A stretch of 64,000 nucleotides of DNA from Chromatiales bacterium (GCA_003251535.1 QKFD01000024.1:97837-161836), one strand, 5' to 3'. Positions 4,088 to 47,667 are shown, numbered from the stretch's first letter. The notes: generated from the letters alone by a model not told the origin. Numbers and translations: made by a program.

Positions 4088-4157
4088 ACCCCTTAGGCTC
4101 GCCGCGGGGTGCTGGAGCCCCCCGCGGTGCAGCGGTTGCTCTAAAAGGTTTTGCAAA

Positions 4158-4883: not shown

Positions 4884-4983
4884 CGCGGCCCAACGGACGC
4901 GCTACGCGAGAGATCCCGTCAGGCGGGGGGGGGCGCCACCCCACCCCGCCGGCGTACAGACGAGATTTTGGGAGAATTACCAC

Positions 4984-32815: not shown

Positions 32816-32892
32816 CCACCCTAACGGGCTACCAAGGTACTGAAGGCCGGACTCGAACCGGCTACCGACTGACTGAGAAGGTCAGCTGCTCT
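32816..32892 (-). ncRNA. tRNA-like element (Arg-UCU-like cloverleaf with non-canonical features)
   Basis: Minus-strand sequence AATGAAG-TA-GCTC-ATTGGGTA-GAGC-AG-CTGAC-CTTCTCA-GTCAG-TCGGTA-GCCGG-TTCGAGT-CCGGC-CTTCAGT-A-CC. It has canonical D-arm (G18G19), T-arm (TTCGAGT) and U8/U33. It also has an extra nucleotide between the D and anticodon stems, C at position 37 and an A2-G71 mismatch. It is located 160 nt downstream of rtcA on the same strand. Confidence 0.5.
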
Positions 32893-33055
32893 ACCCAATG
32901 AGCTACTTCATTGGTGTCCGATGCCACACCACGTTGCCGGTACCTCCCACCCCAGCGGGGCGGAGACCAGGCCGGCCGTTGAACCGGCACCGCTGGCAGT
33001 AGTGGCGGCGACATCAAACTCTGTGGTCCGCCCCGGATCCCGGGACAGAAAATGC

Positions 33056-34147
33056 CTAACCAGCGCCCTCAACCGCGACGCTCCAGACGTCAGTCGCCTG
33101 CTGATCGAGGGTGATGGAACATCCGCTGAAGGCCCGGATCACCTCCAGATTACTGAGCAGGTGGCTACTCGGCCGCACCGTCCGGAAGGTACCACCCGCC
33201 CCTATTACCAACGGCACCAGGAGCTGATCGGCCAGATGCTCCTCCACCTCCACTCCGGCCGCTACTAGGCGCCGCCAGCTGGCCACCGCCAGGCTGGCCA
33301 CCTGCTCAGCGGCGATGCCGATGCGTCCCACCCGCTCGATCACCGTGGCGTGCTGGCGATGGTGCAGACGCAACGAGAGCACATTGCCTGGTCCGGCGGA
33401 GGTCACCACCTCGCTCCGACACCACTCCGACTGCCAATTACAGAGCGCCTGCACCCTCCCCAACTCCCGTTGGGCGATATGGCCGGCGAGCTGGGCGCTG
33501 GTCACCACCGCCTCGCGCCACGCCACCGCTTCCGGCTCCGCCAGCGCCAATGGCCGGCGTTCCCGCCACGGCTGCACCTGCACCTGTAGCTGGCCGCCAC
33601 CCGCCGGATAGAAGCCGTGCCGCTTCAACTCCAGCGTCACCTCGGCCCCCATCTGCCGCAGCAGCGGCAGGAATGAGAGGGCGATAAAGTCACTACTGGG
33701 GGCCATATCGTTGTGGGTCCCCCCCTCTAGCTCCAGGCTGGAGGGGGCCTCCGCCAACAGCAGTGCCGGCAGGATGGTCTGCAACAGCAGCATGGTGCTG
33801 CCGGCACTGCCGATGACAAAGCGATAACTGCCCGCCCGAATCGGCCCTGGCCGAAACTCCACGCAGCTGGAGCCGGCACTATCCCCTACCACCTTGGCAC
33901 CACAGATCGCCTGCGCGGCGCGCACACAGGCGAGGTGCTGGCGCATTAAACCCGGCTTCCGCCGACCGGCCCGGATCTGCTCGATCCGCACCGGCCGGCC
34001 GGTCACCATCGACAGTGACAGCGCGCTCCGCAGGAGCTGTCCGCCCCCCTCCCCGCGCGAGCCGTCTATCGTCAACATCGCTCTATCTCCCATGTTTTCA
34101 CTTGCCATCCGTACCTGTGACTGGACGGCCGTTAACCCTTCACACAC
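33056..34147 (-). CDS. rtcA: RNA 3'-terminal phosphate cyclase
   Basis: 363 aa. N-terminus LTIDGSRGEGGGQLLRSALSLSMVTGRPVRIEQIRAGRRKPGL is the RtcA signature. Overlaps rtcB by 16 nt. Confidence 0.85.
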   Translation of the reverse strand: MCEGLTAVQSQVRMASENMGDRAMLTIDGSRGEGGGQLLRSALSLSMVTGRPVRIEQIRAGRRKPGLMRQHLACVRAAQAICGAKVVGDSAGSSCVEFRPGPIRAGSYRFVIGSAGSTMLLLQTILPALLLAEAPSSLELEGGTHNDMAPSSDFIALSFLPLLRQMGAEVTLELKRHGFYPAGGGQLQVQVQPWRERRPLALAEPEAVAWREAVVTSAQLAGHIAQRELGRVQALCNWQSEWCRSEVVTSAGPGNVLSLRLHHRQHATVIERVGRIGIAAEQVASLAVASWRRLVAAGVEVEEHLADQLLVPLVIGAGGTFRTVRPSSHLLSNLEVIRAFSGCSITLDQQATDVWSVAVEGAG

Positions 34148-35337
34148 ACCACCTGCCGCAGGGTATGCACCACCTCCACCAGCGACGTCTGCGCCGCCAT
34201 CACCGCATCGATGGGTTTGTAGGCCGCCGGGGTCTCATCGATCACGCCGCTATCCTTACGGCACTCCACCCCAGCAGTGGCCGCAACATGCTCCTCCAGG
34301 GTGATACGCCGCTTCGCCTCGCTACGGGACATGGCCCGCCCCGCCCCATGGCTACAGCTATGGAAGCTCTCCTCATTCCCCAGGCCGCGGACAATGAAGG
34401 AGCGCTCCCCCATGCTGCCGGGGATGATCCCCAACTCGCCGTGCCGCGCCCGCACCGCCCCCTTACGGGTGATCCACACCGCCTTACCGTAGTGCTGCTC
34501 ACGGGTGACGTAGTTGTGGTGGCAGTTGATCGCCTCGACATGGGTCTGGAACGGGATCCCGAGGCTGGCGCGCACCGCCGCAATCACCCGCGCCATCATC
34601 ACCTCGCGGTTGATACGGGCGAACTCCTGCGCCCACCCCACCGCTGCCACATACTCACCAAACAGCTCACTCCCCTCCGGTAGGTAGGCGAGATTGCGAT
34701 CCGGCAGCTGGATCATCCAACGCTCCATCTCCCGCTGCGCGAGGGCGATGAAGTGGTTACCGATGCGGTTACCCACACCGCGGGAGCCACTATGCAGCAT
34801 GAACCACACCTGCTGCGCCTCATCCAGACAGACCTCGATGAAGTGGTTACCGCTCCCCAAGGTACCGAGGTGGTGGGCGTTATTGGTCTTGGTCAAGACC
34901 GGATGGCGCGCCTCCAGCTCTCGAAAACCAGGCGCCAACTGCTCACCCCAAGCGGCAGCGACATCGGCCGGCAACTCACTGTTCCAACCGGCCGACCCAT
35001 GGGGCACCGCCGCCTCAATGGCGGCACGCACCCCAGCCAGCTGGTCCGGCAGTTGGGCCGCGCTGAGGGAGCTTTTGACCGCCATCATGCCGCAACCGAT
35101 ATCCACCCCCACCGCGGCCGGGATCACCGCCCCTAGCGTTGGCACCACACTGCCAATGGTCGCCCCCTTACCCACATGCACATCGGGCATCGCCGCGACC
35201 CAGCGGTAGATAAACGGCAGTGAGGCGAGATGCCGCAACTGACGCCGTGCCTCCTCATCAAACGCCACCCCAACGGTCCACGACTTCACCGGTACCCCCG
35301 GGTGGTCGCTCATAACTTCATAACTCTGCCCATCCAT
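34132..35337 (-). CDS. rtcB: RNA-splicing ligase RtcB (3'-phosphate/5'-hydroxyl RNA ligase)
   Basis: Conserved MPDVHVGKGATIGSVVPT, GVDIGCGM and HNY/HGAGR motifs. Start chosen at MDGQSYEV (GAGG Shine-Dalgarno), giving 401 aa. The longer ORF runs to 35502. Confidence 0.85.
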   Translation of the reverse strand: MDGQSYEVMSDHPGVPVKSWTVGVAFDEEARRQLRHLASLPFIYRWVAAMPDVHVGKGATIGSVVPTLGAVIPAAVGVDIGCGMMAVKSSLSAAQLPDQLAGVRAAIEAAVPHGSAGWNSELPADVAAAWGEQLAPGFRELEARHPVLTKTNNAHHLGTLGSGNHFIEVCLDEAQQVWFMLHSGSRGVGNRIGNHFIALAQREMERWMIQLPDRNLAYLPEGSELFGEYVAAVGWAQEFARINREVMMARVIAAVRASLGIPFQTHVEAINCHHNYVTREQHYGKAVWITRKGAVRARHGELGIIPGSMGERSFIVRGLGNEESFHSCSHGAGRAMSRSEAKRRITLEEHVAATAGVECRKDSGVIDETPAAYKPIDAVMAAQTSLVEVVHTLRQVVCVKG

Positions 35338-35406
35338 CGCCTCGACCTCACTGCCTGATGACGTTTCGACCCGGCCCGCTAGCCGGGTCGCGCTCTGGTG
35401 ATTAGA

Positions 35407-35423
35407 TTGCAGAGGCCGTGCCA
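35407..35423 (-). promoter_or_regulatory. Sigma-54 (-24/-12) promoter for rtcBA
   Basis: Minus-strand TGGCACG-gcct-CTGCA with exact GG-N10-GC spacing, about 70 nt upstream of the rtcB ATG. It is divergent from rtcR, which encodes a sigma-54 activator. Confidence 0.6.
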
Positions 35424-35557
35424 ACCTGGAGGCGGAATTCATAAACCTAACAACACTTTGATATTTAAATCCTTTTATCCACCCCCTAGCGTCCCCTTGC
35501 ATGATCTGACCCGCAATGGAATTATCTATCTCGATAACTCATATCGAGAACCATAGA

Positions 35558-37171
35558 ATGAAGACCGTCGTTATTGGTCTGCTGGGGACGGTGCTCGACC
35601 AGCGCGGGCGCTCGGCCAAGCGGTGGGAGAAGTGGCGGCCCACCCTCTCCCTCTGTCAGCACGAGGATCTGCTGGTGGACCGGCTGGAGCTGCTCTGCCA
35701 GGAGCTGTTCCGGCCCTTGGCGGAGCAGCTAGTGGCCGATCTGCGCATCACCTCACCGGAGACCGAGGTGAGGATCCACGCGGTGGAGTTTGCCGATCCG
35801 TGGGACCTCGGGATGGTCTACGGCGCCCTGCACGACTTCGCCCGTGGCTATCCATTCGATCTCGATCAAGAGGAGTACCTGGTCCACATCACCACCGGCA
35901 CCCACATCGCCCAGATCTGCCTCTTTCTCCTGACCGAGGCGCGCTATCTACCCGCCCGCCTGATCCAGACCTCGCCCCCCAAGAAGCCCAACCACCAGCC
36001 CGGCAGCTATCAGATCATCGATCTCGATCTCTCCCGCTACGACGCCATCGCCGCCCGCTTCTCCCGCGAGCAGCGGGAGGGACGCGCCTACCTCAAGGGG
36101 GGCATCGAGACCCGCAATGAGGCGTTCAACCAGATGATCGCCCAGCTGGAGCAGATCTCCATCGCCTCCACCGATCCCATCCTGCTCACCGGCCCCACCG
36201 GCGCCGGCAAGTCGCAACTGGCGCGCCGCATCTTTGATCTGAAGCACTACCGCCAACAGGTGGCGGGACGGCTGGTGGAGGTGAACTGCGCCACCCTGCG
36301 GGGCGACAACGCCATGTCGGCGCTCTTTGGCCACCGCAAAGGGGCCTTCACCGGGGCGCTCAGCGCCCGCAGCGGTCTATTGAAGGAGGCGGATGGCGGG
36401 GTACTGTTTCTCGATGAGATCGGCGAGCTGGGGGGTGACGAGCAGGCGATGCTACTGCACGCCATCGAGGAGAAGCGCTTCCTGCCACTGGGGGGCGACA
36501 GCCAGAGCCGCAGCGACTTCCAACTCATCGCCGGCACCAACCGCGATCTACTGGCCGAGGTGCGCAGTGGCCGGTTTCGGGAGGACCTACTGGCGCGGAT
36601 CAACCTCTGGAGCTACCGCCTCCCCTCACTGCGGGAGCGGCTGGAGGACCTGGAGCCCAACCTCGACTACGAGCTGGAGCGGTTTGCCGAGCGCCGCCAC
36701 AGCCAAGTGGGCTTCAACCGGACGGCACGGGCGACCTACCTCCAGTTTGCCCTCAGCCCAGAGGCGAGCTGGCGGGCCAACTTCCGCGACCTCAACGCCA
36801 GCGTCACCCGCATGGCGACCCTCGCCCCCGGCGGGCGCATCACCCAGGAGGTGGTGACCCAAGAGATCGCCCGACTACGCCACAACTGGGGGGGCACCGA
36901 CACCCCATCGCAGGGCGATCCACGCGCCCTCACCGCCCCTCTGCTGGAGGCCGCCACCCACGCCCAACTCGACTACCTCGAACATGTAGAGCTGGCGGCC
37001 ATTGCCGAGGTGTGTCGCCAGACCGATAGCCTGGCCGAGGCGGGCAGACGCCTCTTTGATCGCTCCCGCGAGCGCAAACGCTCCAGCAACGATAGCCACC
37101 GCCTGCGCCAACGGCTGGCGCGCTACGGCGTGGAATTTGAACAGCTGCGCCGGGCGGCTAAGGGGGAGTAA
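35558..37171 (+). CDS. rtcR: Sigma-54-dependent transcriptional activator RtcR (CARF-AAA+-HTH)
   Basis: N-terminus MKTVVIGLLGTVLDQRGRSAKRWEKWRPTLSLCQ resembles the E. coli RtcR CARF domain. Central AAA+ sigma-54 interaction domain (GPTGAGKS...GAFTGA...). C-terminal HTH. An alternative start at 35516 is possible. Confidence 0.85.
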   Translation: MKTVVIGLLGTVLDQRGRSAKRWEKWRPTLSLCQHEDLLVDRLELLCQELFRPLAEQLVADLRITSPETEVRIHAVEFADPWDLGMVYGALHDFARGYPFDLDQEEYLVHITTGTHIAQICLFLLTEARYLPARLIQTSPPKKPNHQPGSYQIIDLDLSRYDAIAARFSREQREGRAYLKGGIETRNEAFNQMIAQLEQISIASTDPILLTGPTGAGKSQLARRIFDLKHYRQQVAGRLVEVNCATLRGDNAMSALFGHRKGAFTGALSARSGLLKEADGGVLFLDEIGELGGDEQAMLLHAIEEKRFLPLGGDSQSRSDFQLIAGTNRDLLAEVRSGRFREDLLARINLWSYRLPSLRERLEDLEPNLDYELERFAERRHSQVGFNRTARATYLQFALSPEASWRANFRDLNASVTRMATLAPGGRITQEVVTQEIARLRHNWGGTDTPSQGDPRALTAPLLEAATHAQLDYLEHVELAAIAEVCRQTDSLAEAGRRLFDRSRERKRSSNDSHRLRQRLARYGVEFEQLRRAAKGE

Positions 37172-37269
37172 CCGTCCGGGCCTGGCGGCCCGGCAAGGGT
37201 ATAACCGTCGCCACGATAGCTCCGATATCAACAGAGGTAGCCCACCCATACAGACCACTACCTAGAGCG

Positions 37270-38754
37270 CTAAGATCTCTTTCTCCCCCTCCCGGCTGCC
37301 GCTTTGGGGGCGCGATTGGCCAATATCTGCAACTGCGCCAACACCTCGGCCGCTGGCAGCAGCAGCCCTTCGCGTCTCTCCCAGTTACCGATGGTGGGTG
37401 GGGAGACACCAATCAACTGGGCAAACTGGCTCTTGTTGAGACCAAGGCGCTGCCGTAGTGCGGCAACGGCCTCCGCTGTGGGGATGAATGAACCTCTCCG
37501 CCCTGTCTGCGCGGTGGCAGAGGAGTGCGCCGTACCGCCACGTGTCTGCCGCAATGTTGTATTGGCTGGTTTCACAACGCTGGTGCGCTCCGCCACTGGC
37601 TGTGACCTCTTGGCGGATGCCTGCTTGGCCGTACTCGTGCGCGCCGTCACTGGCGTCGCCCTCTTGGCGGACGCCTGTTTGCTTGTGCGTGGCGCCGCGG
37701 GTGCCTCTCTCTTGGCGGATGCCTGCTTAACCGCACCCGTGCGCGCAGTTACCGGCTTCGAGGTCTTAGCCGACGCCTGCTTAACCGCACCCGTGCGCGC
37801 AGTTACCGGCTTCGAGGCCTTAGCCGACGCCTGCTTAGCCGCACCCGTGCGCGCGGTTACCGGCTTCGAGGTCTTAGCCGACGCCTGCTTAACGGTGCCG
37901 GTGGGTGTGGTTACCGGCTCCGATCTTTTGGCTGATGCCCGCTTGGCGGTGCCTGTGCGCGACGCCACTGGGGCGGATCTCTTGGCTGGCGCCCGCTTGC
38001 CACCAGCGGCGCCCGGCGGCGCCGACTCCGCTCCTGTACCAGTGCCCAGCTCCACGCCAAAGATCCCCGAGAGCTGGTCATTGGCCAGCCGGCGGCGGCC
38101 GCTACTGCTGGGGGTTGCGGGTAGCTTGAGATCGGCGGCGGCGATCAGCTCCCGGTGATCCACTCCGCGCAGTTTGAATAGCAGCTCCGGCTGCTCGTCG
38201 AGGCGGGCGCCAACGCCATACAGAACGGCGGCGAGGTGTTTACACATGTCGGCCCAATCGGGACAGCTACACTCCATCTCGATCTCACTCGGCGAGGGGA
38301 ATAGGCCATGTTCTCGATGGGTAACGACCTCCATCACATGGTTGGAGAGCTTGCCTTGCAGTAGTTCAAGCATGGAGCCCACCTCGCCACTGCACGCCTT
38401 GCGCAGCTGCTTCCACTTGGTCGCCGAGAGCGGTTTGATGGTAATGGCGATCTCATAGAGTTCCGAGCCGCTCACTATCGCTTCGATCCGGCCCGGCTGG
38501 ATCTCAAGGTGGCACACCGAGCCGTTGCGCACGTAGGTACGCCCCCGCGGCAACCGGTTGGCATAGTCGCTGAATTTCTCCAGATGGTCGCACCACGCCT
38601 TGCCCCAGAAGGTGTGGACGATGGTGCGTCCACTGATCTCCACCGGGGTGATGAGACGCCCCTGTCTAGCCAGCTGCTGCATCTTGCGTTGGGCATTCGC
38701 ACGCCGCTTATGAACCGGAACGTAGGGTCTCCAACCACGGAAGGACATAGGCAA
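37270..38754 (-). CDS. SWIM zinc-finger protein with Lys/Ala/Ser-rich histone-H1-like tandem repeats and C-terminal XRE-type HTH
   Basis: N-terminal SWIM pattern (CSCPDWADMCKHLAAVLY). Central eight 18-aa repeats (AKxSKPVTARTGAVKQAS). C-terminal HTH (LGLNKSQFAQLIGVSPPTIGNWERREG). Starts 8 nt after the SNF2 helicase gene stop. Confidence 0.6.
   Translation of the reverse strand: MPMSFRGWRPYVPVHKRRANAQRKMQQLARQGRLITPVEISGRTIVHTFWGKAWCDHLEKFSDYANRLPRGRTYVRNGSVCHLEIQPGRIEAIVSGSELYEIAITIKPLSATKWKQLRKACSGEVGSMLELLQGKLSNHVMEVVTHREHGLFPSPSEIEMECSCPDWADMCKHLAAVLYGVGARLDEQPELLFKLRGVDHRELIAAADLKLPATPSSSGRRRLANDQLSGIFGVELGTGTGAESAPPGAAGGKRAPAKRSAPVASRTGTAKRASAKRSEPVTTPTGTVKQASAKTSKPVTARTGAAKQASAKASKPVTARTGAVKQASAKTSKPVTARTGAVKQASAKREAPAAPRTSKQASAKRATPVTARTSTAKQASAKRSQPVAERTSVVKPANTTLRQTRGGTAHSSATAQTGRRGSFIPTAEAVAALRQRLGLNKSQFAQLIGVSPPTIGNWERREGLLLPAAEVLAQLQILANRAPKAAAGRGRKRS
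37610..37981. repeat. Tandem 54-bp (one 48-bp) direct repeats, about 7 copies, within the SWIM gene
   Basis: Near-identical units cttagccgacgcctgcttaaccgcacccgtgcgcgcagttaccggcttcgaggt at 37712, 37766 and 37820, with degenerate flanking copies. They encode the 18-aa K/A-rich repeat. Confidence 0.8.
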
Positions 38755-38761
38755 TCTCCGC

Positions 38762-41461
38762 TTACGTCAATTGACTCTTGTTGATGTCGAGGGTCACGAG
38801 GCCCAGTAAGGTTTCATCATCCATCTCCGTGAGGGGCAGTTCACCACCCTCCCGCAGCAGGTCGTCCGCCAGATGGCGCTTATCGCACAGCAGGGCGTCG
38901 ATCTTCTCCTCAATGGTGCCTCGGCAGATGAACTTGTGCACCAGCACACTCCTCTTCTGACCGATGCGGAAGGCGCGATCAGTGGCCTGGTTCTCCACCG
39001 CGGGATTCCACCAGCGATCGAAGTGGATGACGTGAGAGGCCTCGGTCAAGGTCAGGCCGGTCCCCCCGGCCTTCAGTGAGAGGACGAAAAAGGGCGGCCC
39101 CGCCTCCTGCTGAAAGGCATCGACCCGCTGTTGGCGCTGCGCCACGGGGGTACCGCCATGCAGGATCAGTCCAGGGCGACCAAACTGCTCAGCCAGAAAA
39201 CGGGCCAGCGGTTCGATGATCTCGCGGAACTGGGTGAAGACCAGAACCTTCTCCTGCCGTGCGGCGATCTCCTCGCATAGCTCCGCGAGCCGCAGAAACT
39301 TGCCGCTCATGGCGGGCTCAAAGCGCCCATCTCCCACCAGCTGAGAGGGGTGATTGCAGATCTGTTTGAAGCGCAGCAGATAACTCAGCACCAGACCCCG
39401 GCGCTCTATGCCATCCAAGGTTTCGAGCCCCCGCTTCAGCTCCTTCACCGCCTGCTGATAGTGGGCCGCCTGCACCTTGGAGAGACCACACCAGGCCGCC
39501 ACCTCGGTCTTCTCCGGCAGATCCGCGATGATGCTCCGATCGCTCTTGAGACGCCGCAAGATGTAGGGCTGGGTCAACTGGCGGAGTGGCGCATACGGGT
39601 CATGGGTGCGGGCGGCCAGCCCCTTCGCAAAGGTCTTGAAGCGGCTACTACTGCCGAGCAGACCAGGATTGAGGAAGTCGAACAGCGACCAGAGATCAGC
39701 CAGGCTATTCTCCACCGGCGTGCCGGTGAGGGCGATGCGGGCGTCGGCCTCGATCTGTTTGACCGCCTTGCTCTGACGGGTGGCGGGATTCTTGATGGCC
39801 TGCGCCTCATCCAGCACCAGCAGACGCCAGCGCCGCTGGAGCAGCCAGGCGCGACGGGTGAGGGTGTGGTAGGTGGTAAGGAGTAGATCGCAATCGACCA
39901 GCTCTGCCTCATCCTCGCCCCCCTGCCCGCCTTTGGTATGGGAGGTGTGCACCACGCTGTAGCGCAGTGAGGGGGCAAAGCGTGCAAGCTCCGCGGCCCA
40001 GTTGGCCAGCAGCGATGCCGGCAGGATCAGTAGCGACGGCCGGACCTCCCCTTTGGGTGTGTGGCGCTTGAACAGCAGCAGCAGGGCGATCACCTGGAGG
40101 GTCTTACCAAGCCCCATATCATCGGCAAGGCAGGCGCCTAGCCCGAGCCGCGAGAGCAGCCAGAGCCAGCGCACCCCCTGCTCCTGGTATGGGCGCAGGG
40201 TCGCCCGCAAGTCGCGCCCCAGTTTCACCGCGGCAATGGCGGCGGGAGAGCGCAACTGGGTCAGTAGCTCAGCCAGCTGCGCACTCGGCTCCACCCGCGA
40301 CCACTCGCGCACCACCTCAGTGCCGTTATCGCGGTCAAGCTCGGCGTTGCTCCCCGCCAACAACCGCATCCCCTGAATGAAGCTGAGGCCATCGTGGCCC
40401 ACTTCGGACTCCACCCGCCGCCAGTGGGCCAGCGCCTCCTGCATCCGCTCCTGGTTGACCTCTACCCACTGCCCCTTGAGGAAGATGAGGCCACTCTGGG
40501 CGCGCAAGAGGTTAGCCAACTCCTGCTCGCTGAGGGACTCCTCACCGATGACTACCTGGAGTTTGAAGTCGAGCAGTGCAGCGGCATTGAAGCCCCCTTG
40601 AGGGGCCCCGCCGATGCGGACAGCCACCTGCGGTCGGCTCCGTTTACGCCACCAGTCGGGTAGACGTACCACCAGGCCGCACTCTTCGTAGAGGGCGGCC
40701 TCACGCAAGAAGCGGTACGCCTCCTCCGCCGTCCAGGCAAGCGGATGGTAGAGGTCGCCCGTGGCCAGCAGATCCGCCACCAGGGGGCTCGCCTCAGCGG
40801 CCCGCTGCACTGGCGAGAGTAGTCGAATCAGTGCCTGTCGATCCTTGGCCTGGGCATACTCCGTCAGCGCCTGGTGCAGCGGCTGATAGCGCTGACCGCC
40901 CTTGCCACTCGGCCCCTCGGTGGGGACGTAGGTCGCCATGAAGGCGAAGGGAAGCTCAGGGTCGCGGGGGTTCTCCGCCAGATGGAAGCAGACCCGTCCC
41001 GCCGAGTGCCACTGGGGTGCCCGCTGGCGGAGCAGCGCTGCCAGCGAGCCGTGGCTGCGGATCGCCTCGCAGACCCACGCATCCAGCTGACACCAGATCT
41101 GCTGTAACCCCTCTCTTGATAGGTACTCCAGCCCCGGCATGGGCGGCGCGCCCTGACGCCACTGATCGATCTCCACCTCCGTGAGCTGGGGCAGCGGCTG
41201 GGTCTGCTCCACCCCCTCCTCTAACCGGCAGCGCCCGCTTAAGTAGTGGGTAGCAAAATCGTGCCAATAGCGCAGCACTGGGTCGAGTCCTGCGCCGGGT
41301 TTATCGGCCGCCAGGGTAAACAGCCCCTCAGCGGGATCACGGCTCAACGCCTCCAGCAGAGCGGCCCCGTTGGAGGATGTCGCTTCGCCGTCGCCAGGGA
41401 AACAGTGGAGGCGGCCTGAAGGCAGCAGTCCGAGGGTGCATGGGGTGGGATGGTTGGCCAC
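38762..41461 (-). CDS. SNF2-family DEAD/DEAH helicase with N-terminal bacterial SNF2-associated domain
   Basis: 899 aa. Helicase motifs DDMGLGKTLQ (I), DEAQAIKNP (II) and C-terminal helicase motifs (QRVDAFQ...TDRAFRIGQ). Confidence 0.8.
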   Translation of the reverse strand: MANHPTPCTLGLLPSGRLHCFPGDGEATSSNGAALLEALSRDPAEGLFTLAADKPGAGLDPVLRYWHDFATHYLSGRCRLEEGVEQTQPLPQLTEVEIDQWRQGAPPMPGLEYLSREGLQQIWCQLDAWVCEAIRSHGSLAALLRQRAPQWHSAGRVCFHLAENPRDPELPFAFMATYVPTEGPSGKGGQRYQPLHQALTEYAQAKDRQALIRLLSPVQRAAEASPLVADLLATGDLYHPLAWTAEEAYRFLREAALYEECGLVVRLPDWWRKRSRPQVAVRIGGAPQGGFNAAALLDFKLQVVIGEESLSEQELANLLRAQSGLIFLKGQWVEVNQERMQEALAHWRRVESEVGHDGLSFIQGMRLLAGSNAELDRDNGTEVVREWSRVEPSAQLAELLTQLRSPAAIAAVKLGRDLRATLRPYQEQGVRWLWLLSRLGLGACLADDMGLGKTLQVIALLLLFKRHTPKGEVRPSLLILPASLLANWAAELARFAPSLRYSVVHTSHTKGGQGGEDEAELVDCDLLLTTYHTLTRRAWLLQRRWRLLVLDEAQAIKNPATRQSKAVKQIEADARIALTGTPVENSLADLWSLFDFLNPGLLGSSSRFKTFAKGLAARTHDPYAPLRQLTQPYILRRLKSDRSIIADLPEKTEVAAWCGLSKVQAAHYQQAVKELKRGLETLDGIERRGLVLSYLLRFKQICNHPSQLVGDGRFEPAMSGKFLRLAELCEEIAARQEKVLVFTQFREIIEPLARFLAEQFGRPGLILHGGTPVAQRQQRVDAFQQEAGPPFFVLSLKAGGTGLTLTEASHVIHFDRWWNPAVENQATDRAFRIGQKRSVLVHKFICRGTIEEKIDALLCDKRHLADDLLREGGELPLTEMDDETLLGLVTLDINKSQLT

Positions 41462-41821
41462 TGCGAGATAGGGGGTAGTGAGACGCTGGGCGCCTGAGGG
41501 CTTGGAGGGGGCGGATTATAGCGACTCTCCCCTCCCCCCGACTCGGGGCAGAGATGTTTTGGCAGCGTGCTGGAGAGATCTGAGAGGGGAGAAAGCGCTG
41601 TCCCGGGAGGCCAGGCACGCTATAACCAGTTGATTTTTTGTAATTTTAAAAGGGCCAAAACCGTTTTCTCAGCCAATCGGACGCCGCGGCGTTTGGCCGT
41701 GTAGCAGGACCAAGGAAGGGGATCGCGCTGCCCGTAGAGGGATCGAGCCGGCACGACGGACCCACCTATGGGCACAGGGTCGGTTGGCGGCTCTGGCGAT
41801 CTGCCGCTGGGTCGGCCTGGT

Positions 41822-42463
41822 TCACTGGCCGCGGCTACCCGGTCCCCACCAGATCTCGGCGCGCCGGCCAGCGAACTTCTCCTCCAGAAAACGGCCGTGG
41901 GCCATCAGGCGATCGGCATCGGCACGGTAGAGATCCTCCGCGATGGCCCGCATCTCGCTCTCCAGCAGCGTCAGCTGCTCCAGTAATAGGTCGCGGGCGG
42001 TCTTGCCAGCCCGTACCGGATGCAGCCGGGCGTAGGCGGGTGGCAGGTTGAGGTAGCTCTCCAGCATCTCCGGTAGATAACGGGTAGCCGCACTGGTGAT
42101 CTCGTGCACATGGCGATCCCCGGGATCCAACTTGTTGAGTCCCGGCAGGACGCTTCTCACCGCCTCCATGACCGCCTGTAGCCGCTGCTCTACCGGCGGC
42201 GAGAGCCGTCCGGCCACCTGCTGCCAGAGCCGCTCCAGAGTGGCCTCGGCCTGATCGATGGCCAGCTGGCGATCCATCGCCACCAGCTCGATATGTCGCA
42301 CGGGGGTGAGCAGCACACCGATGGCATAGAGGCCGGGGACGATGAGATACCACCAGCTCTTGATGAGCCCGGCAAAGAAGAGCGCCAACCCCACCAGCGC
42401 CAGCGTGCTGCCCACCAGATTGGGGGTGCCGTACCACCACAACCAGAAGCGGCGCCCCATCAC
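41822..42463 (-). CDS. Hypothetical inner-membrane protein (2 TM helices plus cytoplasmic helical domain)
   Basis: 213 aa with two N-terminal hydrophobic helices. Its start overlaps the stop of the upstream vWA gene by 4 nt. Confidence 0.45.
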   Translation of the reverse strand: MMGRRFWLWWYGTPNLVGSTLALVGLALFFAGLIKSWWYLIVPGLYAIGVLLTPVRHIELVAMDRQLAIDQAEATLERLWQQVAGRLSPPVEQRLQAVMEAVRSVLPGLNKLDPGDRHVHEITSAATRYLPEMLESYLNLPPAYARLHPVRAGKTARDLLLEQLTLLESEMRAIAEDLYRADADRLMAHGRFLEEKFAGRRAEIWWGPGSRGQ

Positions 42464-44031
42464 TGGTAACCGCGGATCTGCTTGAAGGCGTGGGCCAGCG
42501 AGGCCATGCCGTTGAAGGTCTGCCCGCCGGTGCGCTGCGCCAGCCGCTCCATCGCCGCTTGATCCGACTCACCAAATAGCACCGGGAAGGTGCGTACTGC
42601 GCGGGTCTCCGCCGGCAGCTGCGAGAGGAATTTGAAGAAGGCCTGCTCAGTGCCGCCCTGGTTGCTGGCACCATCGGTGAGCAGCACCACCGAGTAGAAG
42701 CGATCCGGCTCGCTCCGCTGCGCCTCACCGATCTGGCGGTAGGCCTCCATCAGGGCGCTGTAGATGGCAGTGCCCCCCCGGGCCTCCAGTTTGCCCACCT
42801 GCCGGCGGATAGCCGCCATAGAGGCCTCGCGGGCCTGCGGATCGGCATCGACAACAAACGCCTGCGTCCCCTGCACCGATTCAGCAAAGGGGAGCAAGGT
42901 GATGCGCTCACGGCTCCGAAAGCGGGCGAAGCGACCGGAGAGGGAGCTATCTAAACCGGTGAGGTTATCCAGCGCCTGACGCAGTGCAGCAATACGCGGA
43001 CCGCGCATGGAGCCACTGACATCGAGCACGTAGAAGGAGTGGCTGGGGCGGCGGTGCTCATCCTGGTAGGCGGTGAGGATGGCGTCGATCACCTCCAAGC
43101 GGGCAGGAAACGGCAACTCCACCAGCAGCCGGGCGGGGAATTGGCCATCGGGTCGCACCTGGGGGATGGCGGGCCGCCGCTGGGTCTGCGCCATCAACCG
43201 CTGCTGCATCGGCGGGCTGCGCAGATAGGCCACCAGCCGTTCATAGGCCGGTCGCTGCGCCTCTTGCAGCAACATCAGGGGATAGTCGGCCGTGACAATC
43301 CCCTCCTGCGGATAGATTAGATAGAGCGGTTCATTGAGCCGCCCCCCCTGATTGAGTTGCAGCAGTACCGACTCGTAGTTGATGAGCCCATCCAGATCCT
43401 GCTGGGCATCGACGTAGGCCTGGGCCAACCAACCGGAGCTACCCGCGGTGAGCTTCTGGCCGTGGAAAAAGGCGCGCAGGGCATCGCTATCCACCTGCTG
43501 TACCGCCACCGCGTCGGCGCTATTGGAGAAGGCGGCGGTCACCCCCAACAGGGCGGTAAAACCGGAGTTGGAGGAGGCGGGATCGGTCATGGCAAAGCGC
43601 AACTCGCCGCTGCGCGCACGCTCGGCGATATCGCGCCAGGTGAGATCGGTTTTATCCAACCAGCCGAAGGCGCGTGCCTTGCTCTGCTTGATACCAAGGA
43701 CCACCGGCGAGAGCATGATGCGCTCTTGTGCCAGGACCCGTCGCCCACTGCTCCCCATCAACAACGAGAGATATTTACCGTGGGAGAACCAGGCCAGATC
43801 GGGCTGCTTCTGCCCAGAGACGATCTGCTCGGCGCCATCGAGGGTGCCGATATACTCCATCTCCAGATGTACCCCGGTCTCCCGCTCGATCTCCCCCAAC
43901 AGGGGGGCCAGATCCTTCAGCTCCGAGCCGGCCAAGACAGTGAGCGTCTCGCTGGGAGGGTTGCCACAACCGGCCACCACCGACAGTAGCAGCGCCAGCG
44001 GTAGGAGCCGTAACCAATGCCGCAGTCTCAT
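42460..44031 (-). CDS. Lipoprotein with periplasmic binding-protein-like N-terminal domain and C-terminal von Willebrand factor A (vWA) domain
   Basis: Lipobox LSVVAGC. vWA MIDAS motif (YVLDVSGSM...TAIYSAL...LLTDG). 523 aa. Confidence 0.65.
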   Translation of the reverse strand: MRLRHWLRLLPLALLLSVVAGCGNPPSETLTVLAGSELKDLAPLLGEIERETGVHLEMEYIGTLDGAEQIVSGQKQPDLAWFSHGKYLSLLMGSSGRRVLAQERIMLSPVVLGIKQSKARAFGWLDKTDLTWRDIAERARSGELRFAMTDPASSNSGFTALLGVTAAFSNSADAVAVQQVDSDALRAFFHGQKLTAGSSGWLAQAYVDAQQDLDGLINYESVLLQLNQGGRLNEPLYLIYPQEGIVTADYPLMLLQEAQRPAYERLVAYLRSPPMQQRLMAQTQRRPAIPQVRPDGQFPARLLVELPFPARLEVIDAILTAYQDEHRRPSHSFYVLDVSGSMRGPRIAALRQALDNLTGLDSSLSGRFARFRSRERITLLPFAESVQGTQAFVVDADPQAREASMAAIRRQVGKLEARGGTAIYSALMEAYRQIGEAQRSEPDRFYSVVLLTDGASNQGGTEQAFFKFLSQLPAETRAVRTFPVLFGESDQAAMERLAQRTGGQTFNGMASLAHAFKQIRGYQ

Positions 44032-44040
44032 ACCCCCTCC

Positions 44041-45273
44041 TCAGATAAGCACTTGGCCCGCCGCTACACTGGGCGCCCCAGCCACGGCGGCGTCCGCCTC
44101 TTGGCGGCGCGTCCGCTCCAGATAGGTGCGCGCCTTATCCACCTCGCTGCTGAGGGTGGTGACGGTCTGCTGCATACTGTCGAGCGCCTTCATCTTGTAG
44201 TTGGCCATCTCATCCATGGCGGCGTAGATGTTTTGGAAGGCGGCCTTGAGCTTATCCAGGTCCACGGTGGCGTTGGCCGCCTGCTGGTGGATCTGGTTGC
44301 TCTGGCGTCGCATCATCTCGGCGGTGCCGGCGATCATGTCTGAGGTGGTGCGGTTGAGTGCCGTGATCTGATCCAGCACCAACTTCTGGTTGGCCAGTGC
44401 CTGGGCCACCATCACCGCGGTGCGCAGGGCGGAGACGGTGGTGGTGGTGGCGCGATCCACCCCTTTGATCAGCTCCAGGTTGTTCTTGCGGATCATGTCG
44501 AGCGCCAGATAGCCCTGGACACTCACCGCCAGTTGGGTGAGCAGGTCCTGCACCTTCTGCCGCACGTAGAAGAGCATCTCCTCTTTCACCACCCGCGCCT
44601 TCTCTGCATCACTCAGCTCGATCTCGGCGACGCGGGTGGTGAGGCTGGTGTCGATCTGCTTGCCGACATAGACATACTTCTCCAGGGTCTGCATGGCCGC
44701 CCAGAGATTGACCTTCTCCTGCTCGATGGTGGCGTTGTCGCGGCGTAGCTCATCCTGACCGCTATAGAGCGCCTGGAGGATGGTGGCCAGGTGGGCCTGG
44801 GCCGACTGATAACGCAGGAAGAAGTCGCGGATGCGGTTGCCAAAGGGGATGAGGCCAAACAGCCTTCTCGGCGTCAGCAGGTCCCCCTGCCGAGAGGGGT
44901 CGAGATCCTCCACCGTGCGCCGCAGATCCACCAACTGGGCCGAGAGCGGCGAGCGCTCATCCATGAGGCCGTTGTTGAGGGAGGCCACCGGCCGCTCCAA
45001 CATGCGGTTGGACATCTGTGCCGCAGCGCGGACCTCCTGATGCCCCATGTTGTGGACCAAGCTCAGCTTCTCTTTGAAGGCATCGCTGTGGACGGCCTGA
45101 CTCACCACCACGTCGATAAAGGCTCTTACCTTCTCATCCAGCGCCTGCTGCTCCTCCGCGCTGATGGGTACCATCCCCGCGGCCTGCTCCTGGGCCACAG
45201 GGGCCACCGGTGCGGGCGGAGTGAGGGCGGCAGGGGGGGTGAGGGACTCGATCTCCATGGAAACTCCTCGCAC
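44041..45273 (-). CDS. telA: TelA/KlaB-family toxic anion resistance protein
   Basis: 410 aa helical protein colinear with TelA family hallmarks (DLRRTVEDLDP...LQALYSGQDELRRDNATIEQEK...). A start at MEIESL is also possible. Confidence 0.7.
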   Translation of the reverse strand: MRGVSMEIESLTPPAALTPPAPVAPVAQEQAAGMVPISAEEQQALDEKVRAFIDVVVSQAVHSDAFKEKLSLVHNMGHQEVRAAAQMSNRMLERPVASLNNGLMDERSPLSAQLVDLRRTVEDLDPSRQGDLLTPRRLFGLIPFGNRIRDFFLRYQSAQAHLATILQALYSGQDELRRDNATIEQEKVNLWAAMQTLEKYVYVGKQIDTSLTTRVAEIELSDAEKARVVKEEMLFYVRQKVQDLLTQLAVSVQGYLALDMIRKNNLELIKGVDRATTTTVSALRTAVMVAQALANQKLVLDQITALNRTTSDMIAGTAEMMRRQSNQIHQQAANATVDLDKLKAAFQNIYAAMDEMANYKMKALDSMQQTVTTLSSEVDKARTYLERTRRQEADAAVAGAPSVAAGQVLI

Positions 45274-45278
45274 TGAAG

Positions 45279-46412
45279 TTACGGGGTGGCGGATTGGATG
45301 GGGGTAGCGTTGTGCTGGTAGCGCTGCTCGATGCGCACAATGGCCCCCTCCAGCAGCTCGTAGCTGGGGGGCTCGATGACATTGACCAGGGTGCGCGGGA
45401 TGGCCAGTTGGTGCTGCTGCACAAAGGCCCAGAAGGCGGCCACGTTGTCGTTGCGCAGCCCGTGCTCGATCGCCAGCTGTTGCAGCTCAGGGTCGTGGGT
45501 CAGCAGCTCGCCTAGTCGGGCACCGTCGTCGTTGGTGGGCAGCAAGATGTGTTTGGTGAAGAGGGTCGGCTCTGGATAGAGCAGCACCATATCGGGTCCG
45601 ATGGGGCTCCCCTGGAGCGCCGCCTGCTCCAGAAATTGCGCCTCGTAGATCATCACCAACGGCGCCTTCCCGAGCCCCATCACCAAGTAGTCGTTAAAGG
45701 GTTCGGCGGAGGAGCTTTCAATAAAACCTTGGCGCAAAAATAGCCCGGTCAGCGGCTCTATCAATGGATCGAGTTGGGCCTCCTGGGAGACCACCTCGTT
45801 GCCGTTCAACACATAGCTGGCCAGCGACAGGTACATGGCGGCGCTATTGGATTTGCGCACGTCGGTGGAGGTGATGAGCACCCCCTTATTGGCGGGGTAG
45901 CGATCCGCCCCTTGCAGATCCTTCCAACGGACCTGCTTGAGGGAGAGATCGAGCAGCGCCGCCATGTCGATCACATACCAGGCGCCATCGCGCTGGTGGA
46001 CGATACCGTTCTGCTCCAGCAGCTCCGCCACAGGGCGCCAGGAGGCGATCACCATGGGGGTAAAAAAGACCGAGAAGGAGCGCTTCAAACCGTGCTCCCG
46101 GCGGATCTTCTCCGCGGCGGGAACGCCCGCGGGAAAGACAAAATCGTAACGCTTGAGATCGAAACCGGAGATCTGCCGCGAGCCCGCCTTCTCCACCTGC
46201 ACCACTAGGCCGTGGCGGGAGAGCGCCGCCTGCACCTTGGGATCAGCAAAAAATGAGATCTTCTCCGAGCCCACCAGGCCATGCAGGGTCACGCTGTTGC
46301 GCAGCATCGACTGCTCGGTAAAGGAGAGATAGAGGGCGAAGCCGACCCCTACAATGAGCAGCAGCGAGAGGAGCGGGGCGAGGATACGGCGGGACATGGG
46401 CATCTCCTTCAC
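45279..46412 (-). CDS. Membrane-anchored periplasmic protein; domain paralogous to N-terminal half of the adjacent vWA lipoprotein
   Basis: 377 aa with an N-terminal TM anchor. Shares a T-x-D-x3-SNS segment and overall pattern with residues about 30-250 of the 523-aa lipoprotein. Confidence 0.45.
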   Translation of the reverse strand: MKEMPMSRRILAPLLSLLLIVGVGFALYLSFTEQSMLRNSVTLHGLVGSEKISFFADPKVQAALSRHGLVVQVEKAGSRQISGFDLKRYDFVFPAGVPAAEKIRREHGLKRSFSVFFTPMVIASWRPVAELLEQNGIVHQRDGAWYVIDMAALLDLSLKQVRWKDLQGADRYPANKGVLITSTDVRKSNSAAMYLSLASYVLNGNEVVSQEAQLDPLIEPLTGLFLRQGFIESSSAEPFNDYLVMGLGKAPLVMIYEAQFLEQAALQGSPIGPDMVLLYPEPTLFTKHILLPTNDDGARLGELLTHDPELQQLAIEHGLRNDNVAAFWAFVQQHQLAIPRTLVNVIEPPSYELLEGAIVRIEQRYQHNATPIQSATP

Positions 46413-46560: not shown

Positions 46561-47667
46561 ATGACCCAACAGAAGCCCCACGCCATGACACCACCGCTCC
46601 ACCAACACCTGCTCGGACTGCTGCTGGGGACGGCAGTGGGAGATAGCCTCGGCCTGCCTTTGGAGGGGCTCTCCCCCCGCCGTGCTCAGCGCCTCTTTCC
46701 GCCGCCGTTGCGCCAGCGGCTACTGCCCGCAACAGGCCTGCTGAGCGACGACACCGAACACACCATCATGGTGGCGCAGGCGCTGCTCGCCGCCCCCGCC
46801 GATCCCGAGCGCTTTATCCGGCACCTCGCCTGGCAGCTACGTCTCTGGCTGCTGGCCCTCCCAGCCGGGGTGGGGCTGGCCACAGCTCGGGCCATCCTCA
46901 AACTACTCATTGGCCTCTCCCCCCACCGCAGTGGGGTCTACTCAGCCGGTAATGGTCCCGCCATGCGGATAGCGATCATTGGCGCCTTTCATGCCGCCCA
47001 TCCGCCCCAGATGGAGCGCTTTGTCAGCGCTGCCACACGCATCACCCATCGTGATCCGCGCGCCCTCACCGGCGCCCGTGCCGTGGCGCGCATCACCGCT
47101 CGACTCACCACTGGGGAGTGGCAGCAACGGCCCCCACTACCGGCCCTGTTGGCAGAGCTGCGCAGCTGTGGTGACGACGCCGAGTGGTTGGCACTGCTAC
47201 AACGGTTGGAGGAGGGGGTAAAGACCCACTGGAGCGTGGCGCGTTTTGCCGTGGCCCTGGGGGCCGAGGGTGGGATCTCGGGCTATATCTACCGCACCGT
47301 ACCGCTCTGCATCTACGCCTGGTACCACCACTTTGGTGACTTCCGCGCCACCCTGGAGGCGACCATCGGCTGCGGCGGCGATAGCGACACCACCGGCGCC
47401 ATCGCTGGCGCCCTGGCGGGCTGTACCGTCGGGGAGGCGGGGATCCCTGCGCAGTGGCTGGCCCAGTTGCGGGAGTGGCCGCGGGGCCAACGGCTGCTGC
47501 GACAGCTGGCAGATGCCTTGACGGCGGCGGCCCCCACCGCTGCGGGACGGGCCGCCGCGCCAACGCGACCCGTCCGCTACGCCTGGTGGGCAGTTCCGGC
47601 GCGAAACCTGATATTTCTTGCCGTGGTGCTACTACACGGCGTACGGCGTCTGTTGCCCCCCTACTGA
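46561..47667 (+). CDS. ADP-ribosylglycohydrolase family protein (DraG-like) with C-terminal hydrophobic extension
   Basis: LLGTAVGDSLGLPLEG...LSDDTEHT...GNGPAMRI motifs. 368 aa. Confidence 0.7.
   Translation: MTQQKPHAMTPPLHQHLLGLLLGTAVGDSLGLPLEGLSPRRAQRLFPPPLRQRLLPATGLLSDDTEHTIMVAQALLAAPADPERFIRHLAWQLRLWLLALPAGVGLATARAILKLLIGLSPHRSGVYSAGNGPAMRIAIIGAFHAAHPPQMERFVSAATRITHRDPRALTGARAVARITARLTTGEWQQRPPLPALLAELRSCGDDAEWLALLQRLEEGVKTHWSVARFAVALGAEGGISGYIYRTVPLCIYAWYHHFGDFRATLEATIGCGGDSDTTGAIAGALAGCTVGEAGIPAQWLAQLREWPRGQRLLRQLADALTAAAPTAAGRAAAPTRPVRYAWWAVPARNLIFLAVVLLHGVRRLLPPY

What the first reader, a model, noticed from the sequence alone, without database searches (positions are those of the whole stretch)
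37270..41461. SNF2 helicase paired with a SWIM zinc-finger protein that carries a histone-H1-like K/A-rich tandem repeat and an XRE HTH
The two genes are separated by 8 nt, so they are probably co-transcribed. The SWIM protein has an unusual three-part architecture. It has an N-terminal SWIM domain, which in other systems is the partner or targeting module of SNF2 ATPases. It has about eight tandem 18-aa AKxSKPVTARTGAVKQAS repeats, resembling histone H1 / AlgP-type DNA-binding tails. It has a C-terminal helix-turn-helix. At the DNA level the repeats are near-perfect 54-bp units, so they are recently expanded and probably length-variable. The cellular role of bacterial SNF2-SWIM pairs is essentially uncharacterised. 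The 360-bp upstream region (41462..41821) contains a low-GC, promoter-like segment.
Basis: partly seen in the sequence, partly recalled or inferred. Interest (0 to 1): 0.6.

Follow-up and report, generated by a model that had tools for sequence, protein, structure and literature searches.

The report
Conserved SNF2–SWIM DNA-motor gene pair
This is a real two-gene operon for a widespread but functionally unstudied bacterial DNA motor (an SNF2 ATPase plus a SWIM zinc-finger partner with a positively charged tail), and only the size of the repeat array in that tail is particular to this genome.

Summary
An 899-aa SNF2 ATPase (38762-41461, minus strand) is followed after 13 nt by a 492-aa protein. 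That protein has a 230-aa SWIM-containing N-domain, a disordered linker of net charge +33 holding eight ~18-aa repeats, and an XRE-type HTH.

The architecture is not unusual. The N-domain family has 6,355 clusters. In 80 genomes from at least eight phyla, the SNF2 gene lies directly upstream in about 72 of 78 testable loci. A basic K/R/A/P/T-rich tail is universal. The HTH is present in about half of the members, including all the Gammaproteobacteria sampled.

In a Wolbachia phage WO record the same N-domain is fused to a DUF3670-SNF2 protein. A near-identical strain differs by one SNP and exactly one 54-nt repeat unit, so length variation is shown directly. Only three of the eight units are near-identical.

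The ATPase core is closest to Sulfolobus SsoRad54 (SSO1653). [quoted passage not shown]

The most likely mechanism is a two-subunit dsDNA translocase whose SWIM partner anchors or targets it to DNA. The cellular role is unknown, and no defence-island signal was found. I rate it a new member of a known kind, of moderate interest.

The parts
38762..41461 (-). SNF2-family ATPase gene, 899 aa, GTG start
   Evidence: ORF. Pfam DUF3670 + SNF2-rel_dom + Helicase_C. Best solved relative is the Sulfolobus SSO1653 core, 1z63, E 4e-126. ATPase motifs are intact.
40202..41461 (-). SNF2 N-terminal region (residues 1-420), conserved along its whole length in the family; includes DUF3670 (residues 238-367, window 40361-40750)
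38960..40189 (-). SNF2 ATPase core (residues 425-834: SNF2-rel_dom and Helicase_C)
38749..38761 (-). 13-nt intercistronic spacer GCGGAGATTGCCT with a GGAG ribosome-binding site 7 nt before the ATG
   Evidence: Sequence read directly. The same gene calls appear in L001. Short spacers or overlaps are the family rule.
37270..38748 (-). SWIM / basic-linker / HTH partner gene, 492 aa from ATG 38748 (the mechanical ORF starts at TTG 38754)
38059..38748 (-). Conserved N-domain (residues 1-230) containing the SWIM CxCx6CxH motif at residues 160-171 (window 38236-38271)
37489..38058 (-). Disordered basic linker (residues 231-420): net charge +33, pI 12, A 22%, T+S 25%
   Evidence: pLDDT below 50 over most of 231-417. 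Composition. A basic linker or tail is present in all 81 loci examined.
37561..37986 (-). Tandem array of eight 54-nt (one 48-nt) units encoding AK(T/R/A)SKPVTARTGAVKQAS-like 18-mers. Units 3-5 (37717-37878) are 93-94% identical.
   Evidence: One unit is missing in the otherwise near-identical allele of L001.
37309..37488 (-). C-terminal XRE/cI-type helix-turn-helix (residues 421-480), followed by a short basic tail (residues 481-492)
   Evidence: Pfam HTH_3, 28 bits, above the cut-off. pLDDT about 95. Foldseek matches to C.Kpn2I, CapH, P22 c2 and HigA2 at rmsd about 2 A.
41462..41821 (-). Upstream non-coding spacer. Contains one 40-nt low-GC block (41622-41661, GC 0.28) and a TATAAT hexamer near 41514-41519. 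It is a candidate promoter region and is unproven.
   Evidence: No Rfam family matches.

Best explanation
The two genes encode the two subunits of one ATP-driven double-strand-DNA translocase of the SsoRad54 (SSO1653) type.

The 899-aa protein is the motor. It has a catalytically intact SNF2 core preceded by a conserved 420-aa N-terminal region that includes DUF3670.

The 492-aa protein is its obligate partner. I infer that its 230-aa SWIM-containing N-domain docks on the motor. I also infer that its polycationic disordered linker and C-terminal XRE helix-turn-helix hold on to DNA.

A motor tethered to DNA through a second contact cannot simply slide. It instead reels in DNA, generates torsion or loops, and can strip or reposition bound proteins. 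Anchored SNF2 remodelers work this way, and SsoRad54 changes DNA topology in this way.

The 18-aa repeat array is a lineage-specific, in-frame, slippage-prone expansion of the family-wide basic linker. It lengthens the tether and adds about +4 charge per unit.

Shown here: domain content, intact ATPase motifs, operon structure, conserved pairing, a natural fusion, linker disorder and charge, and copy-number polymorphism. Inferred: physical complex formation, DNA binding by the linker and HTH, and the remodelling outcome. The cellular process served is not determined. Recombination or repair support, or clearance of protein roadblocks, is my leading guess, by analogy with SsoRad54 and RapA.
For: - Motor: Pfam SNF2-rel_dom and Helicase_C; motifs I, Ia, II, III and VI intact. 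The closest solved structure is the SSO1653 core, E 4e-126. Full-length SsoRad54 is a dsDNA-dependent ATPase without helicase activity that alters DNA topology and stimulates RadA strand exchange (PMC2677860).
- Partnership: an SNF2 homologue lies on the same strand upstream in 77 of 80 genome loci. About 72 of 78 testable loci have it directly adjacent. These loci span Gammaproteobacteria, Desulfobacterota, Planctomycetota, Verrucomicrobiota, Acidobacteriota and others.
- Coupling: the spacer is 30 nt or less, or the genes overlap, in 57 of 77 loci.
- No third conserved gene was found.
- Fusion: in Wolbachia phage WO record MN180251, an N-domain homologue (34% identity, E 4e-23) is fused N-terminally to a DUF3670-SNF2 protein. 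This is a different order from the split genes, so it is not a simple read-through.
- DNA-holding parts: the linker has net charge +33 and pI 12 and is predicted disordered. A basic tail (K+R 13-49%) follows the N-domain in all 81 loci examined. The HTH is confident and fold-matched to DNA-binding XRE repressors.
- Repeat plasticity: one SNP plus one 54-nt indel separate two alleles. Independent in-frame repeats with different units occur in 17 of 81 family genes.
Against: - No direct evidence of a complex. A multimer prediction could not be run, and only adjacency and one fusion support it.
- The N-domain itself could be the DNA- or structure-recognition part rather than the docking part.
- The SWIM Pfam score of this protein is just below the cut-off.
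- The HTH is absent from 37 of 81 family members, so it is not essential to the core mechanism.
- The linker is less lysine-dense (20% K+R) than real H1 tails, and DNA binding is untested.
- No phenotype is known for any bacterial member. B. subtilis YwqA, a poorly characterised Swi2/Snf2 translocase, gave no clear phenotype (PMC7385302). I did not test whether YwqA belongs to this subfamily.
Confidence: 0.6

Rival explanations
1. The pair is an anti-phage or anti-plasmid defence module, or a counter-defence or maintenance module carried by mobile elements. In this reading the SNF2 motor acts on invading DNA and the SWIM/HTH protein acts as sensor or regulator.
For: - The SNF2 core hits PADLOC ZorD and DpdE models strongly (E 1e-126 and 1e-113).
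- The SWIM protein has a short hit to the candidate family PDC-S62 (E 3e-5, 42 residues).
- N-domain homologues occur on 147 plasmid records and in a Wolbachia WO prophage.
- Iyer et al. state that these ATPases are widely present in mobile systems (PMC5512222).
- A few flanking genes are defence-candidate families: 6 PDC-S01, 2 DpdF-like, 2 SoFic, 2 PsyrT among 121 nearest neighbours.
Against: - The ZorD and DpdE hits cover only the generic ATPase core. NCBIfam scores are far below the family cut-offs: ZorD 301 vs 1500, DpdE 42 vs 500, DrmD 79 vs 950.
- No Zor, Dpd or Drm partner genes and no nuclease or other effector domain are present.
- The window neighbours are ordinary chromosomal genes: rtcR/rtcB/rtcA, TelA-VWA, ADP-ribosylglycohydrolase, RuBisCO.
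- The nearest neighbours in 79 genomes are heterogeneous, with 152 Pfam families and mostly housekeeping functions.
- The N-domain is 52-67% identical across phyla. That is unusually conserved for a defence gene.
- Most plasmid hosts are large replicons (100 kb to several Mb), and 66 of 147 are non-mobilizable.
Confidence: 0.15
2. The SWIM/HTH protein is mainly a transcription factor that autoregulates the operon or controls other genes through its XRE HTH. In this reading it is not a working subunit of the motor.
For: - XRE-type HTH with a confident fold, closest to controller proteins, phage repressors and antitoxins.
- A 360-nt upstream spacer with an AT-rich block and small palindromes could hold an operator.
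Against: - 37 of 81 family members lack the HTH but keep the N-domain, the basic tail and the SNF2 neighbour.
- The most conserved part is the N-domain, not the HTH.
- The N-domain is fused to the motor in Wolbachia WO.
- No significant promoter or operator signal was found.
- The two roles are not mutually exclusive.
Confidence: 0.1
3. The motor is a RapA/HepA-like RNA-polymerase recycling factor, and the SWIM protein is an accessory.
For: - Bacterial Swi2/Snf2 translocases such as HepA and YwqA are reported to interact with RNA polymerase (PMC7385302).
- There is a weak NCBIfam RapA hit.
Against: - The RapA model scores 55 bits against a cut-off of 576 and covers only part of the core.
- The closest relatives are SsoRad54-type, not RapA.
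Confidence: 0.08

Closest known systems
[quoted passage not shown]
   Same: - The ATPase core is the best match among all solved structures (E 4e-126, residues 417-893).
- The association with a SWIM domain is the trait used in the literature to name this group (PMC5512222).
- The expected activity is dsDNA-dependent ATPase and translocase without helicase activity (PMC2677860).
   Different: - Here the SWIM domain is on a separate polypeptide encoded downstream, and that polypeptide also carries a long basic linker and an HTH.
- The organism is a bacterium and has no RadA.
- No biochemistry exists for this or any bacterial member that I could find.
Fused SWIM-DUF3670-SNF2 proteins (example: 'SNF2/RAD54 family helicase' QHJ75532.1 in Wolbachia phage WO record MN180251)
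   Same: Contains the same N-domain (34% identity over 165 residues, with the SWIM motif), the same DUF3670 and the same SNF2 core.
   Different: - It is one polypeptide with the N-domain at the N-terminus, whereas the window has two genes in the order SNF2 then SWIM.
- The fused protein has no basic repeat linker and no HTH.
- It lacks the C53/H55/C79/H80 residues conserved in the window's subfamily.
- The record is marked UNVERIFIED, and the annotated CDS ends within the SNF2 domain.
Anchored eukaryotic SNF2 remodelers (ISWI/CHD type) and linker-histone H1 / Pseudomonas AlgP / Chlamydia Hc2-type basic tails
   Same: - The logic is the same: a Snf2 motor plus a separate DNA-holding element.
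- The tail is polycationic, Ala/Pro/Thr/Ser-rich, repetitive and disordered.
- One family member (P0079) carries a precomputed Pfam HC2 (PF07382) hit in its KKTAA-repeat linker.
   Different: - This is an analogy only. The window protein has no sequence-family match to H1, Hc2 or AlgP.
- Basic residues make up 20% of the linker, which I recall is lower than in H1 tails.
- There are no nucleosomes in bacteria.
- The comparison with AlgP and H1 rests on my own knowledge of their composition and was not tested here.
SNF2 components of defence systems (Zorya ZorD, Dpd DpdE, DISARM DrmD)
   Same: They share the SNF2 ATPase core.
   Different: - Family-specific scores are far below the cut-offs.
- There is no Mrr-like nuclease domain.
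- None of the partner genes is present.
- The N-terminal region (DUF3670) is different.

Membership tests
SWIM-associated SWI2/SNF2 ATPases (SsoRad54 / SSO1653 subfamily) | SNF2-type ATPase core with intact helicase-like motifs | tested here: met
   Pfam SNF2-rel_dom E 2e-65 and Helicase_C E 5e-21. Motifs I, Ia, II, III and VI found.
SWIM-associated SWI2/SNF2 ATPases (SsoRad54 / SSO1653 subfamily) | Core closer to SSO1653 than to other Snf2 subfamilies | tested here: met
   1z63 scores E 4e-126. The next hit is ZorD at 2e-73, and eukaryotic remodelers score 1e-67 or weaker. No phylogeny was built.
SWIM-associated SWI2/SNF2 ATPases (SsoRad54 / SSO1653 subfamily) | Association with a SWIM domain, either fused or encoded by the neighbouring gene | tested here: met
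   The SWIM gene is 13 nt downstream. The pairing is conserved in about 72 of 78 testable loci. A fused form exists.
SWIM-associated SWI2/SNF2 ATPases (SsoRad54 / SSO1653 subfamily) | dsDNA-dependent ATPase and DNA-topology remodelling activity | not testable with these tools
   Known only for SsoRad54 (PMC2677860).
SWIM zinc finger (Pfam PF04434) | CxCxnCxH signature | tested here: met
   C160-S-C162-x6-C169-K-H171, invariant in 102 sequences.
SWIM zinc finger (Pfam PF04434) | Pfam score at or above the gathering cut-off | tested here: not met
   The window protein scores 18.8 bits against a cut-off of 19.6 (E 1e-3). Relatives pass: 66 of 102 at E<=1e-3, the Bradyrhizobium homologue at 22.5 bits and the WO fusion at 25.1 bits.
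SWIM zinc finger (Pfam PF04434) | Structural similarity to a solved SWIM-containing protein | tested here: inconclusive
   [not shown]
SWIM zinc finger (Pfam PF04434) | Zinc binding | not testable with these tools
   -
XRE / cI-type helix-turn-helix (Pfam PF01381 HTH_3) | Profile match above the cut-off, and the expected fold | tested here: met
   28 bits against a cut-off of 23. pLDDT about 95. Foldseek TM 0.6-0.7 and rmsd about 2 A to C.Kpn2I, CapH, P22 c2 and HigA2. HTH_3 is found in 101 of 102 close relatives.
Histone H1 / Hc2 / AlgP-type basic DNA-binding tails | Sequence-family membership (profile match) | tested here: not met
   No H1, HC2 or AlgP family at E<=0.1 in Pfam or NCBIfam for the window protein.
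Histone H1 / Hc2 / AlgP-type basic DNA-binding tails | Polycationic, Ala/Pro/Ser/Thr-rich, repetitive and disordered | tested here: met
   Net charge +33 over 190 aa, pI 12, A 22%, T+S 25%, P 7%. pLDDT below 50. Eight tandem units.
Histone H1 / Hc2 / AlgP-type basic DNA-binding tails | DNA binding or compaction | not testable with these tools
   -
Zorya ZorD / Dpd DpdE / DISARM DrmD defence helicases | Family-specific profile score and presence of the system's partner genes | tested here: not met
   NCBIfam ZorD 301 vs 1500, DpdE 42 vs 500, DrmD 79 vs 950. The neighbours are Rtc and TelA/VWA genes. No conserved third gene exists in the family.
RapA / HepA RNA-polymerase-associated Snf2 | Family-specific profile score | tested here: not met
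   55 bits against a cut-off of 576.

The most novel reading that the evidence does not exclude
The SNF2-SWIM pair could be a general bacterial 'nucleoid remodeler'. Its partner subunit would carry a built-in linker-histone-like tail that tethers the motor to chromosomal DNA. Slippage in the repeat array would tune the tether length and charge, and so the remodelling range or affinity, between strains. This would be a prokaryotic counterpart of anchored chromatin remodelers, conserved across at least eight phyla and still without an assigned function.
Probability: 0.12. Interest if true: 0.7.

Novelty: new member of a known kind. Interest (0 to 1): 0.35.

Why it matters
Bacterial SsoRad54-type SNF2 ATPases with SWIM partners are very common. 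The N-domain family alone has thousands of clusters, spread over many phyla, megaplasmids and a Wolbachia prophage. I found no functional study of any bacterial member.

This analysis contributes three things:
- The module is a self-contained two-gene unit.
- The partner always carries a polycationic disordered tail and often an HTH. That points to a DNA-anchored translocase and gives concrete constructs to test.
- The tail is a hotspot for independent in-frame repeat expansions, and copy-number change is seen between two nearly identical strains.

For this particular window the finding is ordinary for its family. Its value is as a clean, well-delimited example for biochemistry.

Full report
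**What is in the sequence.** The window carries two same-strand ORFs at exactly the stated coordinates.

The upstream ORF (38762-41461, minus strand, 899 aa) has these Pfam domains:
- DUF3670 ("SNF2 Helicase protein", residues 238-367, E 2e-34)
- SNF2-rel_dom (residues 425-706, E 2e-65)
- Helicase_C (residues 726-834, E 5e-21)

ATPase motifs I (GLGKT), Ia, II (DEAQ), III (TGTP) and VI (QATDRAFRIGQ) are intact.

The downstream ORF is listed from TTG 38754. All homologues start at the ATG two codons later (MSFRGW...). The protein is therefore 492 aa (37270-38748). The spacer is 13 nt, GCGGAGATTGCCT, with a GGAG ribosome-binding site 7 nt before the ATG.

**The partner protein has three parts.**

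(i) Residues 1-230 form a conserved domain with the SWIM signature C160-x-C162-x6-C169-x-H171.
- The Pfam SWIM score of this protein is 18.8 bits, just below the cut-off of 19.6.
- The four ligand residues are invariant in 102 relatives.
- SWIM is detected in 66 of those 102 at E<=1e-3, and above the cut-off in more distant homologues.

(ii) Residues 231-420 are predicted disordered, with pLDDT below 50 over most of the stretch.
- Net charge is +33 and pI is 12. Composition is 22% Ala, 25% Thr+Ser and 7% Pro.
- Residues 255-396 (window 37561-37986) are eight tandem units of 18, 18, 18, 18, 18, 16, 18 and 18 aa.
- At the DNA level units 3-5 are 93-94% identical. The others are 56-78% identical. 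The array is therefore an old repeat with a recently amplified core, not eight near-perfect copies.

(iii) Residues 421-480 are an XRE/cI-type helix-turn-helix.
- HTH_3 scores 28 bits against a cut-off of 23, and pLDDT is about 95.
- Foldseek matches C.Kpn2I, CapH, P22 c2 and HigA2 at about 2 A rmsd.

**Length variation is shown directly.** A metagenome contig (L001, Logan SRR7216773) has the same gene order: TelA, VWA, an unnamed gene, SNF2, SWIM. Its partner gene differs from the window's by one substitution and one 54-nt deletion, which is exactly one repeat unit (474 vs 492 aa). These two alleles are the only members of their 90%-identity cluster.

**How common the arrangement is.** The N-domain alone finds 6,355 clusters at 50% identity (E<=1e-3; 1,124 at E<=1e-30) among 1.84 billion representatives.

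A scan of one genome per species returned the 80 best loci (L002-L081). They come from Gammaproteobacteria, Desulfobacterota, Planctomycetota, Verrucomicrobiota, Acidobacteriota, Alpha- and Betaproteobacteria and others. N-domain identities to the window are 52-67%.
- 77 of the 80 loci have an SNF2 homologue on the same strand upstream, 50-63% identical over residues ~10-898.
- Two of the other three have too little upstream sequence to judge, and one (L053) lacks it.
- Over the 77 junctions measurable among all 81 loci (L001 included), the stop-to-start distance is 30 nt or less, or an overlap, in 57. It exceeds 400 nt in only six.
- No third gene is conserved with the pair. The window's own neighbours recur only in the near-identical L001.

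**What varies in the partner.** In all 81 loci examined the N-domain is followed by a basic, Ala/Pro/Thr/Ser-rich segment (K+R 13-49%).
- A local HMM finds the HTH in 44 of 81: 15 of 15 Gammaproteobacteria and 9 of 10 Desulfobacterota, but 10 of 30 Planctomycetota and 1 of 8 Acidobacteriota. The rest end in the basic tail alone.
- Among the 102 closest relatives, 101 have HTH_3.
- Some members have two or three tandem copies of linker+HTH (P0033, P0062, P0016).
- In-frame tandem repeats occur in the linker of 17 of 81 genes, with a different unit in each lineage. Examples are KKVV x5, SAK x12, a 40-aa unit x2.4 and TAKK-type decamers. P0079 has KKTAA and ASNKP arrays and a precomputed Pfam HC2 hit.

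The basic tail is therefore a defining family feature, and repeat expansion in it is recurrent. The specific 18-mer is private to this lineage. The nearest outgroups, P0002 and P0003, have short non-repetitive linkers.

**Evidence that the two proteins work together.** Beyond adjacency and coupling, Wolbachia phage WO record MN180251 encodes a single protein with a homologue of the N-domain at its N-terminus. That homologue is 34% identical over window residues 38-202 (E 4e-23; SWIM 25 bits). It is followed by DUF3670 and the SNF2 domain.

The domain order in the fusion (SWIM first) is the reverse of the gene order in the split form, so the fusion is not a trivial read-through. On Bradyrhizobium plasmids the two genes overlap by 4 nt and are annotated "DEAD/DEAH box helicase" and "SWIM zinc finger family protein".

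**The motor.** The best solved relative of the core is Sulfolobus SSO1653 (1z63, E 4e-126). It scores far ahead of ZorD (2e-73) and the eukaryotic remodelers. Full-length SsoRad54 is a dsDNA-dependent ATPase without helicase activity. It changes DNA topology in a topoisomerase-coupled assay and stimulates RadA strand exchange (PMC2677860).

**Mechanism proposed.** I propose a two-subunit dsDNA translocase. The SWIM N-domain joins the partner to the motor (inferred). The polycationic linker and, where present, the HTH hold DNA (inferred). ATP-driven translocation then works against a tether, which produces torsion or loops or strips bound proteins. Each added repeat unit lengthens the tether by 18 residues and adds about four positive charges. 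Slippage among the three near-identical core units explains the one-unit difference between strains.

The biological process is not established. Recombination or repair support, or roadblock clearance, is the best guess by analogy. The only bacterial genetics I found describes B. subtilis YwqA, a Swi2/Snf2 translocase, as poorly characterised and without a strong phenotype (PMC7385302). I did not test whether YwqA belongs to this subfamily.

**Defence reading.**

Points in favour:
- PADLOC ZorD and DpdE models hit the ATPase core.
- The family occurs on 147 plasmid records and in a prophage.

Points against:
- NCBIfam scores are far below every defence-family cut-off.
- No effector domain or system partner is present.
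- The window is ordinary chromosome: rtcR/rtcB/rtcA, TelA/VWA, RuBisCO, molybdopterin oxidoreductase.
- The 121 nearest flanking proteins in 79 genomes fall into 152 Pfam families, with only scattered defence-candidate hits.
- The proteins are unusually conserved across phyla.

I keep this reading as a minority rival.

**Upstream region.** The 360-nt spacer (41462-41821) is GC-rich apart from one 40-nt block at 41622-41661 (GC 0.28). It also contains a TATAAT hexamer near 41514-41519. The only sigma-70-like match (CTGAGA-18-TAAAAT, 41672..41643) is no more than chance would give. No Rfam family matches. A promoter there is likely on general grounds but is not shown.

**Verdict.** The only lineage-specific feature is the size and recent amplification of the repeat array. 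I rate it a new member of a known kind, of moderate interest.

Noticed in passing
window 32836-32912 (-), next to 33056-37171: A tRNA-Arg(TCT) gene lies about 140 nt downstream of rtcA. It ends an rtcB-rtcA operon that has a divergent sigma-54 activator gene, rtcR (RNA repair cluster). rtcR converges on the SWIM gene.
   Followed up: partly
window 37176-37193: A GC-rich hairpin, CCGGGCC-GCCA-GGCCCGG, lies between the convergent rtcR stop (37171) and the SWIM gene stop (37270). It has no T-run on either strand. It may be a shared terminator or a REP-like element.
   Followed up: no
window 41822-46412 (-): A four-gene cluster, conserved with L001: a 377-aa protein with no Pfam hit, TelA (toxic anion resistance), a fused solute-binding/VWA protein, and a 213-aa protein with no Pfam hit. 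An ADP-ribosylglycohydrolase gene lies just beyond it (46561-47667, +).
   Followed up: partly
SWIM protein residues 53, 55, 79, 80 (window about 38507-38592): C53, H55, C79 and H80 are invariant or nearly invariant in this subfamily. They are absent from the Wolbachia fused homologue. This may be a second metal site specific to the split-gene subfamily.
   Followed up: no
P0016, P0033, P0062 (relatives of the SWIM protein): Some family members carry two or three tandem copies of a roughly 90-aa unit made of basic linker plus HTH. Whole DNA-binding modules are therefore duplicated, not only short repeats.
   Followed up: partly
L020 and L026 (Geobacteraceae / Desulfuromonadaceae MAGs): The SNF2 and SWIM genes are separated by about 5.9 kb and 2.8 kb instead of a few nucleotides. 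This suggests insertions into the operon. The inserted DNA was not examined.
   Followed up: no
window 37304-38158 (+): A 284-aa antisense ORF runs across the repeat array. It is repetitive and a by-product of GC-rich repeat DNA. Similar antisense ORFs inside the SNF2 gene cluster across 68 loci.
   Followed up: yes
window 48874-50268 (+); 1013-5952 (+); 53262-57506 (+): A RuBisCO large-chain gene, a molybdopterin oxidoreductase with a DmsC-like anchor subunit, and a 1,414-aa PAS-GGDEF-EAL protein. These suggest an autotrophic, probably sulfur-oxidising gammaproteobacterium. The organism was not identified.
   Followed up: partly
[not shown]
   Followed up: partly
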